A stretch of 64,000 nt of DNA. Source: an uncultured Clostridia bacterium (lineage in GTDB: Bacteria > Bacillota > Clostridia > Christensenellales > UBA1242). How positions within the stretch are numbered: position 1 is the first letter of the stretch; each line of letters opens with the position of its first letter. Positions 48,850 through 58,076 of the stretch are shown here, one piece after another. The translations under genes were made by a program, and so were the position numbers. The stretch covers positions 3,498 through 67,497 of the forward strand of contig CALWPD010000003.1 of NCBI GenBank assembly GCA_944383335.1, given 5' to 3'. The notes beneath the pieces are model-generated. The model searched no databases, was not told where the DNA came from, and saw nothing but the letters and a program-made list of their open reading frames with translations.

Positions 48850-48879
48850 AAAAAATTGCTCATTTTTGGGCAATTTTTT
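48850..48879. terminator. Bidirectional terminator downstream of the DUF1858 gene
   Basis: Stem AATTGCTC/GGGCAATT (one G-U pair) flanked by an A-run and a T-run. Confidence 0.65.
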
Positions 48880-49085: not shown

Positions 49086-49147
49086 ATTTTTTCTCCTTTT
49101 TTAATGATTATTTGTTTATATAAATTTTGTGTCTTTATTCATAAAAT

Positions 49148-49311
49148 GACATTCTTTATGTCATCCCAAGCCATGCCTTAATGCGTCGGCTTTTTATGTC
49201 ATTCTGAGACGGCCGTCAACACATCGACCTTTTTCGTCATTCTGAGCGAAGCGAAGAATCTCAACTTTATACTGTCATTCCGAGTAGTGCGGCATGTCAG
49301 AGCAACCGGTT
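49148..49311 (+). repeat. Phased array of four 38-nt units, each opening with GTCAT(T/C)C(T/C)(G/A)AG
   Basis: Unit starts at 49160, 49198, 49236 and 49274, exactly 38 nt apart, with a partial GACATTC at 49148. Unit 3 is the canonical hairpin GTCATTCTGAGCGAAGCGAAGAATCTC. Units 1 and 2 end in T5. Confidence 0.8.
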
Positions 49312-49323
49312 GGGTGGTGGGCA

Positions 49324-49917
49324 TTAACTTATTGTTTCATCAAGAAATGTTGCCATATTATCAGCAATATGAGTCAAAAACGCATTTGGATATTTGTAAT
49401 AAATATCATTCAAACTAATTCCGCCTTTAACTCGCATGTCATACTCTCCCATATGCCAGTTGATACACATCGCTTCTTCTCTGGTTAGTCGAATAAAACC
49501 ATTTAAGATATACACAGATTTTTCACCATGACCATAGGGTAATTTGTCCTGTGTTGTATAATATGGTACTTGCACCCAAACCCCATTTTGTTTAACATTT
49601 TTGGTGTCCACAACATATGTATCAACTTTACAAATATCATGAAACAATGCCACAATAGTTGCACTTTCAAGCGAAAAATATTGTTGCCATTGTTCGCCAT
49701 ATTGCATTTTTAAAAGTTTAACAAGTCTTTCAAAAACATTAAGGGAATGTTTACAAAGCCCACCAGCGCAATTTGAGTGATATCTTGTTGATGCTGGTGC
49801 TACAAAAAAGTCAGTTTTTTGTAAATATTCAATAAGTGTATTAATACCTTCACGTTTTATGTTGTCTTTAACCAAACTTAAAAAAATATTTTTGTTGTCT
49901 TCAATAACATTATCCAT
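49324..49917 (-). CDS. HD-domain hydrolase (YhaM-like HD domain, no OB fold)
   Basis: STRYHSNCAGGLCKHSLNV and ALFHDICK (H...HD). Start taken at MDNVIEDNK (49917) with RBS GGAGAA. The upstream extension in the track is repeat-rich and probably non-coding. Confidence 0.72.
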   Translation of the reverse strand: MDNVIEDNKNIFLSLVKDNIKREGINTLIEYLQKTDFFVAPASTRYHSNCAGGLCKHSLNVFERLVKLLKMQYGEQWQQYFSLESATIVALFHDICKVDTYVVDTKNVKQNGVWVQVPYYTTQDKLPYGHGEKSVYILNGFIRLTREEAMCINWHMGEYDMRVKGGISLNDIYYKYPNAFLTHIADNMATFLDETIS

Positions 49918-49934
49918 TAATTTTCTCCGAACAC

Positions 49935-49963
49935 ATTTTAGCATAAAAACAATCAATAAACAA
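49935..49963 (-). promoter_or_regulatory. Candidate promoter of the HD-hydrolase gene
   Basis: Minus strand TTGTTT-17 nt-TAAAAT with a TG extension, about 17 nt before the ATG. Confidence 0.45.
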
Positions 49964-50143
49964 CATTTTGGCATATAAATAATACATATGGAAAATAATA
50001 ATGTGGAAAATATAATATCGCTTGCAACAATTTTTTCCACATCACTTTCGAAAAACAGTACAAAAGAACAACTGTTAGAATATAAAATATTTTTTCAAAC
50101 TGTAACAAATAATTTAAATTCAATACTCTCAAGCAAAAAGTAA

Positions 50144-50300
50144 GAGATTTTTCACTGACGCCACTTTTCGTCTTCTTGAGCGTTTCAGTCTGTCATTTTG
50201 AGTTTGAATTTCGTCATTTTGAGTGTGTATTCCGTCATTCTGGGCGTTTTAGCCTGTCATTCTGAGCCCGCTCCAACGCGTCGACCCACGAAGAATCTCA
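50144..50300 (+). repeat. Tandem 21-22-nt array of the GTCATTYTGAG family (five units) plus one inverted partial copy
   Basis: Unit starts at 50170, 50192, 50213, 50234 and 50256 (spacing 22, 21, 21, 22). An inverted partial copy GAGATTTTTCACTGAC lies at 50144-50159. The last unit is a long form, GTCATTCTGAG-22 nt-CGAAGAATCTC. Confidence 0.8.
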
Positions 50301-50301
50301 T

Positions 50302-50431
50302 GGGCACCAAAAAGTACCTACGGAAACTTTTTGGCGAGAGGAGAAACGGAGCGTAAAGTAAAAATTTGCGAATAGCAAATTGAAGCCCTAAGCGACAGTT
50401 TTGACGAGAGACGGAGCCGCAGAGCTCACGA
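50302..50431 (+). repeat. About 130-nt structured repeat element, copy 2
   Basis: Aligns with the reverse complement of 1100-1227. Hairpins CCAAAAAGT/ACTTTTTGG and AATTTGC/GCAAATT. Followed by another CGAAGAATCT half-site (50429-50438). Confidence 0.6.
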
Positions 50432-50437
50432 AGAATC

Positions 50438-51355
50438 TTATTTTTTTAATCGCAAATCGCTATTCTCAACATTGATAACAAGTGAAGATGCTTGGCTTAA
50501 AAGTCTTGAAAACACTCTGTCGCCATAAAAGTCTTGAATTTGCTGTAAGGATAGGTTAGTAGATATGACCGTTTTTTTATTGTTTCTCATTCTCTCAGAA
50601 AGCACATTATATATCCCTTCAATCGTAACATTTTTTAATATAGGTTCTGTTCCAAGGTCATCAATAAAAAGGTAATCGGGTTCCATTAACATATGCAAAT
50701 ATTGACCCTTAGTTTCATCAAAAGTTGTGTGATATTTTAATAAATTTTGATTAAGCTCAAAAGCGGAAGTAAAGTATACAAGTACTTCTTTATTAATAAG
50801 GTCATTTGCCATACATTCCATTACATATGTTTTGCCAGCGCCGGTTTTACCAATCAAAAGCACATTATTATAGGGGTTTTTCTTATCACACCAGTTTTTT
50901 AAGATTTCATATAATTTTTGTGTTTTTTTGGGGTCATCAAAGATTTTAAAATCGCAATTTTCGAAACTTTTTTTGTCCTTGCTAAGTCCGCTTTTTTCAA
51001 ATAAAATTAAATTAATTTCGCGTTTTAGACAAGAACATATCTCACCATTAACATAGCCTGTATCATTACATTTTGCACAAGTGTAGTGTGGTGAAATGGC
51101 TTTTTTGTCAATTTCTAATTTTTTCAAAATGTCATCTTGAATTTTAAGAAGATTTGTTAGGTCATATTTTGGCTTTTCCCCATAAACTTCAGATTTAGCA
51201 TTTTGAATTTCTGCTTGTTTAATTTCTTTAAAATTCTTTTTAAATTCTTCATTTGCCATCGCTTTTTCAAAAAAACTGTATGCCAGTGCTTCAGCATTTA
51301 CACGCCTTGCTTTGATTTTGTTTAGCGCTGATTCAATTATTTGTTTGTTTAACAT
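50438..51355 (-). CDS. dnaI: Helicase loader DnaI/DnaC-like AAA+ protein
   Basis: N-terminal Cys cluster CAKCNDTGYVNGEICSC, Walker A GKTGAGKTY and Walker B LFIDDLGTE. Confidence 0.8.
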   Translation of the reverse strand: MLNKQIIESALNKIKARRVNAEALAYSFFEKAMANEEFKKNFKEIKQAEIQNAKSEVYGEKPKYDLTNLLKIQDDILKKLEIDKKAISPHYTCAKCNDTGYVNGEICSCLKREINLILFEKSGLSKDKKSFENCDFKIFDDPKKTQKLYEILKNWCDKKNPYNNVLLIGKTGAGKTYVMECMANDLINKEVLVYFTSAFELNQNLLKYHTTFDETKGQYLHMLMEPDYLFIDDLGTEPILKNVTIEGIYNVLSERMRNNKKTVISTNLSLQQIQDFYGDRVFSRLLSQASSLVINVENSDLRLKK

Positions 51356-58042: not shown

Positions 58043-58076
58043 GTCATTTCGAGCGTCAGCGAGAAATCTCTTTTTT
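58043..58076 (+). repeat. Hairpin repeat copy (GTCATTTCGAGCGTCAGCGAGAAATCTC) followed by T6; probably doubles as the acpS terminator
   Basis: Stem ATTTC/GAAAT with inner CG-TCAG-CG, and a T-run at 58071-58076. Confidence 0.75.

What the first reader, a model, noticed from the sequence alone, without database searches (positions are those of the whole stretch)
49148..49311. Four repeat units phased at exactly 38 nt downstream of the HD-hydrolase gene
GTCATCCCAAG, GTCATTCTGAG, GTCATTCTGAG and GTCATTCCGAG start at 49160, 49198, 49236 and 49274. Only about 11 nt at the head of each unit is conserved. The tails differ, but each folds locally: GCC...GGC plus T5, GGCCG...CGACC plus T5, and the canonical GCGAAGC mini-hairpin. 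The strict phasing with variable tails is unusual for simple REP clusters. It superficially recalls repeat-spacer logic, but the dimensions do not fit CRISPR.
Basis: seen in the sequence. Interest (0 to 1): 0.55.

Follow-up and report, generated by a model that had tools for sequence, protein, structure and literature searches.

The report
Phased cluster of nuclease-target hairpin repeats
The four 38-nt-phased units are one complete and three truncated copies of a known hairpin repeat family (NTS/SRM, the "CGTC-tagged REPs") that small GIY-YIG "Ssn" nucleases cut as single-stranded DNA, but this hairpin variant and its head-only tandem arrays do not seem to have been described.

Summary
Four GTCATYCYRAG heads start at 49160, 49198, 49236 and 49274, exactly 38 nt apart.

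Unit 3 is a complete hairpin element, (T/C)GTC-ATTCT-GA-GC-GAA-GC-GA-AGAAT-C. Units 1, 2 and 4 keep only its 5' half. A second array sits on the other side of the HD gene at 50170-50299, with spacings of 22, 21, 21 and 22 nt. A solo element lies at 58043.

The same motif occurs in many phyla. It is concentrated about 100-fold around small (about 95 aa) GIY-YIG genes: 64 of 80 such loci have it within 300 nt. This matches the published Ssn nuclease / Ssn-related-motif (SRM, NTS-like) system and the older "CGTC-tagged REP" superfamily.

Two things appear undescribed:
- This G·A-bulged hairpin subtype is missed by the published SRM search string (0 of 137 elements match).
- Many arrays share an "h_nC" layout: several head-only units followed by one complete unit at the 3' end. 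Spacing peaks at 21-22 nt, with a smaller peak at 38 nt.

Sister lineages carry different element sets, or none, at the same two intergenic sites, so both arrays are fast-turnover insertions. No ssn gene lies in the window. Verdict: a new variant of a known kind, of moderate interest.

The parts
49140..49150 (-). Degenerate inverted head (GTCATTTTATG on the minus strand), facing unit 1 head-to-head across 9 nt
   Evidence: Relatives L209 and L211 have full minus-strand elements head-to-head with the plus-strand element at this site. Head-to-head dimers are typical of CGTC REPs.
49160..49197 (+). Unit 1: head-only unit of 38 nt. The head is degenerate (GTCATCCCAAG) and no matching 3' arm (GGGAT) follows.
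   Evidence: Weak local hairpin plus T5. The tail resembles the loop insert of the 50256 element.
49198..49235 (+). Unit 2: head-only unit of 38 nt (GTCATTCTGAG plus a 27-nt tail). Its arm ATTCT could pair only with the 3' arm of unit 3.
49236..49262 (+). Unit 3: complete hairpin element GTCATTCTGAGCGAAGCGAAGAATCTC (GTC tag, ATTCT/AGAAT stem, tandem G·A, GCGAAGC mini-hairpin, C after the palindrome)
   Evidence: An identical element sits at the orthologous site in L209 and L211. Covariation of both stems across the family.
49274..49303 (+). Unit 4: 22-nt head-only unit (GTCATTCCGAG plus 11 nt), followed by a degenerate head GTCAGAGC at 49296. No GGAAT 3' arm lies downstream.
50170..50255 (+). 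Second array: four head-only units (GTCTTCTTGAG, GTCATTTTGAG, GTCATTTTGAG, GTCATTCTGGG) with spacings of 22, 21, 21 and 22 nt
   Evidence: Absent from relative L123.
50256..50299 (+). Complete long-loop element that ends the second array: GTCATTCTGAG, a 22-nt insert, then CGAAGAATCTC
   Evidence: Logan contig L001 ends inside its 3' arm.
50427..50439 (+). Orphan 3' half (CACGAAGAATCTT) abutting the stop codon of the dnaI/dnaC-like gene. A complete element occupies the orthologous position in L209 and L211.
58043..58070 (+). Solo complete element GTCATTTCGAGCGTCAGCGAGAAATCTC, lying between two plus-strand genes
49324..49917 (-). HD-type hydrolase gene flanked by the two arrays. It is context only, not part of the element. 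The gene is conserved widely in Clostridia whether or not the repeats are present.

Best explanation
The array is a local cluster of a dispersed hairpin repeat family: a subtype of the NTS-like 'Ssn-related motifs' (SRM), which belong to the CGTC-tagged REP superfamily.

A complete element reads (T/C)GTC, a 5-bp stem starting with AT, tandem G·A, a GCGNAGC mini-hairpin, the closing stem, then C. [quoted passage not shown] A roughly 95-aa single-domain GIY-YIG nuclease, encoded elsewhere in the genome, would bind it and nick a few nucleotides upstream of the GTC tag. This step is inferred, not shown.

Units 1, 2 and 4 are truncated copies that keep only the 5' half. They arose by tandem duplication of a segment made of pre-head flank plus 5' half. 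The length of the first duplicated segment set the 38-nt period (here head, loop insert and a short T-rich flank; elsewhere a 27-nt complete element plus about 11 nt). This process is common in the family and gives an 'h_nC' layout, with head-only units upstream of one complete unit.

I think the duplications are most likely by-products of stalling or nick repair at the hairpin (speculative). The head-only units here are probably decaying and have no function of their own.
For: Shown by tool results:
- Unit 3, the element at 50256 and the element at 58043 carry the full signature: HGTC tag, a stem that starts with AT, and C after the palindrome.
- The hairpin covaries. The inner pairs are GC 41 / AT 18 and CG 43 / TA 6. 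This control does not depend on how the elements were chosen. The outer arms are perfectly complementary in 53 of 75 elements anchored on the inner core, against 8.1 expected when partners are shuffled.
- The motif occurs in many phyla. It is concentrated next to small PF01541 GIY-YIG genes. 64 of 80 loci (62 of 78 clusters at 90% identity, 41 on both sides) have a head within 300 nt. Density is 5.5-8.1 per kb in the first 100 nt against 0.04-0.3 per kb beyond 1 kb.
- These GIY-YIG proteins are 45-52% identical (E = 1e-21 to 1e-26) to GIY-YIG genes directly flanked by canonical NTS hairpins.
- The literature describes the same system. Ssn nucleases bind NTS/SRM hairpins only as single-stranded DNA and cut upstream. 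GTC is needed for cutting and the C after the palindrome for binding. CGTC REPs have no known transposase.
- The h_nC layout is common. 46 of 57 arrays with at least 3 heads end in a complete unit, and 124 of 142 internal units are head-only. This is replicated in loci chosen by the gene rather than by the array (hC 21, hhC 11, and so on).
- Head-only units share the first 11-13 nt with the terminal element and carry about 10 nt of pre-head flank.
- 38 nt is a recurrent secondary spacing mode.
- Both arrays are lineage-specific. Relative L123 (HD protein 86% identical) and L213/L214 have empty sites (spacers of 41-55 nt against 238 nt, and 228-241 nt against 520 nt). L209 and L211 carry other element sets at the same two sites.
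Against: - No ssn-like gene lies in the 64-kb window or in the relatives' loci, so a cognate nuclease in this genome is unproven.
- The elements do not fit the published degenerate SRM string (0 of 137).
- No Ssn of this subfamily has been tested biochemically.
- Head-only units cannot form the hairpin alone. Units 1 and 4 have no complementary 3' arm anywhere nearby.
- The proposed link between nicking and duplication is untested.
- There is no strand bias relative to local GC skew (37 against 41 loci).
- Heads are only marginally better conserved than spacers within arrays (12.8% against 20.8% mismatches, p = 0.064).
- That the unit 3 to unit 4 spacing also equals 38 nt may be coincidence.
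Confidence: 0.75

Rival explanations
1. The head-only units are functional. Each 5' half in an h_nC array can pair with the single downstream 3' arm, looping out the units in between. The array would then offer an Ssn-type nuclease a ladder of phased alternative cleavage sites, or act as a tunable sink for the nuclease.
For: - Published data show that Ssn tolerates loop extensions and cuts when the two NTS halves are supplied on separate strands.
- The terminal complete unit is always on the 3' side of the heads.
- Unit 2's arm matches unit 3's 3' arm.
- Arm positions diverge slightly less than spacers.
Against: - Units 1 and 4 in the window have arms (ATCCC, ATTCC) with no complementary partner.
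- The conservation difference is not significant (p = 0.064).
- The arrays are absent or different in sister lineages.
- No biochemical evidence exists.
Confidence: 0.12
2. The array is a set of phased double-stranded DNA binding sites (iteron- or operator-like) for a regulator of the flanking HD, dnaI and dnaD/B genes.
For: - The second array has 21-22-bp spacing, which is two helical turns.
- The arrays flank genes next to replication-loader genes.
Against: - The same motif and the same array layout occur in unrelated gene contexts across many phyla.
- The motif tracks GIY-YIG genes, not replication genes.
- 38 nt is not a whole number of helical turns.
- The closest relatives keep the same operon with no heads at all.
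Confidence: 0.04
3. The elements act at the RNA level, as a terminator, a 3'-UTR stabiliser or a small RNA. This is the role classically proposed for REPs.
For: - Di Nocera et al. report that REPs lie mostly downstream of coding regions and may act as RNA elements.
- Units 1 and 2 end in T5 runs on the plus strand, and the solo element at 58043 is followed by a T-run and lies between co-directional genes.
Against: - The flanking genes of both arrays are on the minus strand, so their transcripts carry the complement, which has no T-run.
- The terminator scan found nothing in the array.
- The RNA and DNA folds of the units are no better than shuffled sequence.
- Rfam has no match.
- Orientation relative to genes is inconsistent.
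- SsnA does not bind RNA.
- The GCGNAGC apex with tandem G·A is a DNA-type mini-hairpin (my own knowledge, not tested here).
Confidence: 0.07
4. A CRISPR-like or toxI-like processed repeat array, or simply a chance pattern.
For: Regular spacing with a conserved head and variable remainder.
Against: - The conserved part is only 11 nt, and no cas or toxin gene is nearby.
- The 'spacers' are diverged copies of element or flank sequence.
- Chance is excluded by the shuffles and by recurrence of the same layout in hundreds of loci.
Confidence: 0.01

Closest known systems
NTS / Ssn-related motifs (SRM) and the Ssn family of GIY-YIG single-stranded-DNA nucleases (Chenal et al., Nat Commun 2025, PMC11893778)
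   Same: - HGTC tag, a palindrome that starts with AT and ends with AT, then C followed by Y.
- 20-50-nt hairpins, mostly intergenic, clustered around particular genes.
- The hairpins flank a single-domain GIY-YIG gene of about 94 aa on one or both sides.
- Many orphan copies lie far from the gene.
- The partner proteins found here are 45-52% identical to GIY-YIG genes flanked by canonical NTS.
   Different: - The stem is 5 bp, tandem G·A, 2 bp and a GNA triloop, instead of a continuous GC-rich stem of 8-9 bp.
- The published search string HGTCWYN(0-2)YYVSBRH... matches none of these elements.
- The hosts here are Clostridia and many non-proteobacterial phyla.
- The main text of the paper does not mention tandem or truncated (head-only) arrays.
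- No nuclease gene is present in this window.
CGTC-tagged REP superfamily (Di Nocera, De Gregorio and Rocco 2013, PMC3733652), including Neisseria dRS3/NIME clusters and Rickettsia RPE-4/RPE-6
   Same: - A terminal CGTC or TGTC tag.
- Complementary A/T at the first two stem positions.
- A short unpaired 3' tail.
- Head-to-head dimers and large clusters.
- No dedicated transposase known.
   Different: - The described families have 8-9-bp perfect stems, 4-5-nt loops and a CCA tail, and were found in 5 phyla, mainly Alphaproteobacteria.
- Head-to-tail (tandem) arrangements were reported as negligible for CGTC repeats. Here tandem head-to-tail arrays are the main feature.
REP/BIME/REPIN elements with RAYT (IS200/IS605-like HUH tyrosine transposases)
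   Same: It works in a similar way. A dispersed hairpin with an unpaired tag is recognised as single-stranded DNA by a small nuclease whose own gene is flanked by the repeats. The repeats form mosaic clusters.
   Different: - The tag is GTC, not GTAG.
- The partner is a hydrolytic GIY-YIG nuclease, not a Y1 HUH transposase.
- No RAYT was seen in the loci examined.
CRISPR arrays
   Same: Regular spacing of a conserved block separated by less conserved sequence.
   Different: - The conserved block is 11 nt.
- The periods (21-51 nt) are set by duplication.
- The 'spacers' are homologous to each other and to flanking or element sequence.
- There are no cas genes and no leader.

Membership tests
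Ssn-related motif (SRM / NTS-like) | Unpaired 5' tag HGTC directly before the palindrome (needed for cleavage) | tested here: met
   The window elements read cGTC or tGTC. Position -1 is T in 81% and C in 15% of 709 family copies.
Ssn-related motif (SRM / NTS-like) | Hairpin-forming inverted repeat of 20-50 nt, with pairing maintained in evolution | tested here: met
   Compensatory changes occur in both stems. The thermodynamic fold of a single copy is weak.
Ssn-related motif (SRM / NTS-like) | C immediately after the palindrome (critical for binding), followed by Y | tested here: met
   AGAATC-T, AGAATC-T and GAAATC-T in the three complete window elements. The next base is T in 81% and C in 15% of family copies. 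The C itself was required by my detector, so it is shown only for the window copies.
Ssn-related motif (SRM / NTS-like) | Matches the published degenerate search string HGTCWYN(0-2)YYVSBRHN(0-5)WNVSBRGN(0-2)RNCYNB | tested here: not met
   There are no matches in the window, and 0 of 137 complete elements from the genome loci match. The canonical NTS control does match. The tandem G·A positions break the required S/B/R columns. This is a search heuristic rather than a biological definition.
Ssn-related motif (SRM / NTS-like) | Physical association of the motif with single-domain GIY-YIG (ssn) genes of about 94 aa, flanked on one or both sides | tested here: met
   This holds for the family. 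64 of 80 loci have a head within 300 nt, and 41 of 78 clusters have heads on both sides, with steep decay over distance. The proteins hit PF01541. They are 45-52% identical to GIY-YIG genes flanked by canonical NTS. It does not hold inside this window, which has no ssn gene.
Ssn-related motif (SRM / NTS-like) | Bound and cleaved by the cognate Ssn only as single-stranded DNA, upstream of the motif | not testable with these tools
   This needs biochemistry. It has been published only for Neisseria and Wolbachia homologues.
Ssn nuclease family (CDD cd10448) | The partner protein is assigned to cd10448 (GIY-YIG_unchar_3) | not testable with these tools
   No CDD library is available here. Pfam gives PF01541 only. 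NCBIfam gives nothing specific. The PDB holds only distant UPF0213 proteins (E = 6e-8).
CGTC-tagged REP superfamily | CGTC or TGTC tag, A/T at the first two stem positions, stem of 8-9 bp, loop of 4-5 nt, CCA-like tail | tested here: inconclusive
   The tag and the AT start are met. The stem spans 9 positions, but two of them are G·A mismatches. The loop is 3 nt (GNA) or a long insert. The tail is CTC rather than CCA.
GTAG REP / RAYT system | GTAG tag and an associated Y1 HUH transposase | tested here: not met
   The tag is GTC(A). No recurrent transposase family was found among 1,434 ORFs from the 120 loci.
CRISPR | Repeats of 23-48 nt, unique spacers of foreign origin, cas genes or a leader | tested here: not met
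   The conserved block is 11 nt. The spacers are homologous to each other and to flanking sequence. The neighbouring genes are tig, clpP, clpX, DUF1858, the HD gene, dnaI-like and dnaD/B-like.

The most novel reading that the evidence does not exclude
The head-only phased arrays may be a direct footprint of Ssn activity. The nuclease would nick about 9-13 nt upstream of the GTC tag on a hairpin-bearing single strand. Displacement synthesis stalled at the very stable GCGNAGC apex, followed by flap ligation or slippage, would then duplicate 'flank plus 5' half' again and again. This would make a small GIY-YIG nuclease a driver of local tandem-repeat expansion across many bacterial phyla. The arrays might also be used afterwards as multi-register cleavage sites. 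Either way, the h_nC layout would be a genomic read-out of where each Ssn homologue cuts.
Probability: 0.25. Interest if true: 0.65.

Novelty: new variant of a known kind. Interest (0 to 1): 0.45.

Why it matters
The Ssn/SRM system was described only in 2025, mainly from Neisseria and other Gram-negative bacteria.

This locus and the census around it show three things:
- A distinct hairpin subtype (tandem G·A plus a GCGNAGC DNA mini-hairpin) pairs with its own Ssn-like subfamily.
- The subtype is widespread in Clostridia, Bacteroidota, Chloroflexota, Acidobacteriota, candidate phyla and viral contigs.
- The published search motif cannot see it, so current SRM counts are underestimates.

The recurrent h_nC arrays give a concrete, testable handle on how these repeats multiply, a question both source papers leave open (the repeats 'lack a dedicated transposase'). 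They could also predict cleavage offsets for uncharacterised Ssn enzymes, which are of interest as single-stranded-DNA tools.

In practice, these elements break short-read assemblies and give rise to spurious small ORFs.

Tried and rejected
- **Rfam.** Searches at the gathering threshold and at E <= 10 found nothing at the arrays.
- **Literature by sequence.** Searching for the motif strings returned only irrelevant hits.
- **Single-unit folding.** Folds were not better than shuffled sequence, so 'each tail folds' is not a defining property.
- **Terminator and promoter scan.** Nothing was found in the array.
- **Recurrent neighbouring proteins.** An all-against-all comparison of 1,434 ORFs gave only generic families plus the small GIY-YIG gene. 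No transposase or RAYT turned up.
- **HD gene as part of the element.** Rejected. The gene is conserved in thousands of Clostridia, and in close relatives that have no repeats.
- **Lagging-strand or GC-skew bias.** None was seen (37 against 41 loci).
- **Selection on head arms within arrays.** Inconclusive (p = 0.064).
- **Nested-insertion model** (stacked heads on the left, stacked tails on the right). Rejected, because the arrays printed show no stack of 3' arms after the terminal complete unit.
- **ssn gene in the window or the relatives' loci.** None was found, even at E <= 10.
- **Organism name.** The cluster look-up gave no names. Homologues are labelled only as Clostridia or Clostridiales MAGs.
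- **Supplementary tables of the Ssn paper.** Not held.

Full report
**1. The observation**

The spacing is 38 nt.

With at most one mismatch, GTCATYCYRAG occurs 12 times in the window against 4.09 expected, and no shuffle out of 100 reaches 12. All exact matches lie at 49160-49274 and at 50256.

Two independent Logan assemblies carry an identical array. One of those contigs ends inside a CGAAGAAT motif, which is how a dispersed repeat behaves in assembly.

The array lies between a minus-strand HD-type hydrolase gene and a DUF1858 gene. The HD gene spans 49324-49917, and its true start is the ATG at 49917, behind a GGAG ribosome-binding site. The wider context is tig-clpP-clpX followed by dnaI-like and dnaD/B-like genes, in a 33% GC Clostridia-like MAG.

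**2.

A second array lies on the other side of the HD gene. Its heads are at 50170, 50192, 50213, 50234 and 50256, with spacings of 22, 21, 21 and 22 nt. The last head belongs to a complete element, GTCATTCTGAG-N22-CGAAGAATCTC. An orphan 3' half lies at 50427-50439, and a solo element GTCATTTCGAGCGTCAGCGAGAAATCTC at 58043.

Unit 3 of the finding is itself complete: GTCATTCTGAGCGAAGCGAAGAATCTC. So the 'head' is the 5' half of a hairpin whose 3' half is CGAAGAATC.

The claim that each tail folds is weak. Only unit 1 shows a marginal hairpin (z = -1.8), and unit 2 shows none. The tails of units 1 and 2 resemble, in register, the loop insert of the 50256 element. Unit 4 is a 22-nt head-only unit followed by a degenerate head at 49296.

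**3. Census across genomes**

I scanned one genome for each of 185,579 species for two heads 21-51 nt apart.

Head-to-head spacing peaks at 21-22 nt, is broad over 24-28 nt, and has smaller peaks at 38, 45 and 51 nt. In an independent set of loci chosen by a gene rather than by arrays, the same modes appear (22, 38, 45). There, 38 nt is mostly a complete element plus a spacer of 9-13 nt.

The 279 complete copies found with a perfect 5-nt arm complement give this consensus: GTC-ATTYY-GA-GC-GNA-GC-GA-RRAAT-C. Loop inserts reach about 50 nt.

Both stems covary:
- The inner pairs are GC 41 / AT 18 and CG 43 / TA 6. My selection criteria did not impose these.
- The outer arms are perfectly complementary in 53 of 75 elements anchored on the inner core only, against 8.1 expected after shuffling partners.

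**4. Array architecture**

Among 57 arrays with at least three heads, 46 end in a complete unit at the 3' side. Of the internal units, 124 of 142 are head-only. The commonest patterns are hhC (21), hhhC (9), hhhhC (4) and hhhhhC (2). The gene-chosen loci show the same layout: hC 21, hhC 11, and so on.

Head-only units share the first 11-13 nt with the terminal element. They then continue with about 10 nt that resembles the sequence upstream of the first head. Identity to that flank averages 5.0 of 10, and identity between neighbouring units averages 7.4 of 10.

So the arrays arise by tandem duplication of 'pre-head flank plus 5' half'. The window's second array is a textbook hhhhC. The finding's array reads h-h-C-h, with a degenerate inverted head at 49140-49150.

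**5. Comparative genomics**

The closest relative (HD protein 86% identical; L123-L125) keeps the gene order dnaD/B, dnaI, HD, DUF1858 but has no heads. Its spacers are 41 nt against 238 nt in the window, and 228 nt against 520 nt. The two arrays are therefore insertions of about 190 and 295 nt. L213 and L214 are also empty at both sites.

L209 and L211 carry different element sets at the same two sites. These include an identical GTCATTCTGAGCGAAGCGAAGAATCTC next to the HD stop codon, head-to-head partners, and a complete element where the window has only the orphan 3' half. These are fast-turnover hot spots, not conserved regulatory arrays.

**6. The partner gene**

Five of the 120 array loci have a GIY-YIG ORF of about 95 aa (PF01541) immediately beside the repeats.

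I then ran the reverse test on 80 metagenome loci encoding this protein subfamily (78 clusters at 90% identity, median pairwise identity 58%):
- 64 loci have a head within 300 nt of the gene, and 41 clusters have heads on both sides.
- Density is 5.5-8.1 per kb in the first 100 nt and 0.04-0.3 per kb beyond 1 kb. None lie inside the gene.

Conversely, of 92 viral-contig loci seeded by a single complete element, only one has the gene, and there the gene is flanked on both sides. Most copies are therefore orphans, as in this window. No homologue lies in the window or in the relatives' loci.

**7. Comparison with what is known**

Di Nocera et al. (PMC3733652) defined CGTC/TGTC-tagged REPs with A/T at the first two stem positions. 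The group includes Neisseria dRS3 and Rickettsia RPE-4/6, and 'apparently lack a dedicated transposase'.

Chenal et al. 2025 (PMC11893778) showed that the extended dRS3 (NTS, CGTCATTCCCGCGMAVGCGGGAATCYRG) and related 'SRM' hairpins flank a 94-aa single-domain GIY-YIG gene, ssnA, in many bacteria. They also showed the following about Ssn:
- It binds the hairpin only as single-stranded DNA.
- It cuts a few nucleotides upstream.
- It needs the three bases before the palindrome (GTC) for cutting and the C after the palindrome for binding.
- It tolerates loop extensions and split halves.

The window elements share the tag, the AT start and the trailing C-Y. The partner proteins are 45-52% identical to GIY-YIG genes directly flanked by canonical NTS hairpins, including one NTS-gene-NTS locus.

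The differences are these:
- The published degenerate SRM string matches none of these elements (0 of 137), because of the tandem G·A.
- The main text of that paper does not mention tandem or truncated arrays.
- Di Nocera et al. called head-to-tail arrangements negligible for CGTC repeats.

**8. Mechanism**

Shown here: the element is a covarying hairpin repeat of the SRM / CGTC-REP kind, its family is tied to Ssn-like genes, and the arrays arise by partial tandem duplication and turn over quickly.

Inferred from the published biochemistry: the complete units act as single-stranded-DNA hairpins that a cognate Ssn, encoded elsewhere, nicks upstream.

Speculative: the duplications are by-products of nick repair or polymerase stalling at the GCGNAGC apex.

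Two checks did not add support. There is no strand bias relative to GC skew. Heads are only marginally better conserved than spacers within arrays. Units 1 and 4 have no possible pairing partner, so this particular array looks like a decaying by-product rather than a device.

**9. Verdict**

I rate it a new variant of a known kind, of moderate interest. The value lies in the undescribed hairpin subtype and the general h_nC layout, not in this locus alone.

Noticed in passing
window 49918-50150: The leader upstream of the HD gene is conserved with relatives. It contains a 13-nt inverted repeat (ATGTGGAAAATAT at 50001-50013 and ATTTTTTCCACAT at 50030-50042) and a 15-nt tandem repeat AAATAATAATATGGA x2.8 (49977-50018). 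This may be an operator or a leader structure.
   Followed up: no
window 50300-50426: The roughly 127-nt stretch between the complete element and the orphan 3' half is absent from relative L123. It holds a direct repeat (GAGGAGAAACGGAGC and GACGAGAGACGGAGC) and two small hairpins (CCAAAAAGT..ACTTTTTGG and AAATTTGCGAATAGCAAATT). Its origin is unknown.
   Followed up: partly
L123, L210, L211 (region between clpX and DUF1858): Relatives carry variable cargo at this position: an HTH_3 gene, plus LRR_5 or DUF6273 genes. The whole neighbourhood, not only the repeat sites, is a variable hot spot.
   Followed up: no
L001:1-10 (window about 50290-50299): A Logan contig from an independent sample ends exactly inside the CGAAGAAT 3' arm, so these repeats fragment short-read assemblies.
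   Followed up: partly
L115:7500-8000: A long array with a period of about 72 nt (AATGACAGGAGCGTTGCCCTTAAGGATG...) sits directly upstream of an Ssn-like GIY-YIG gene. The array contains inverted heads. This shows that much longer composite units can also be amplified.
   Followed up: no
L307-L426 (viral contigs with canonical NTS hairpins), e.g. L323:89-1186: Canonical NTS-type hairpins are common in IMG/VR contigs and also form dense clusters (13 copies in one locus). I did not check whether they show the same head-only h_nC layout.
   Followed up: no
window 48850-48879: A 13-bp-stem hairpin flanked by A- and T-runs lies between the convergent clpX and DUF1858 genes. It looks like an ordinary bidirectional terminator and is unrelated to the repeat family.
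   Followed up: no
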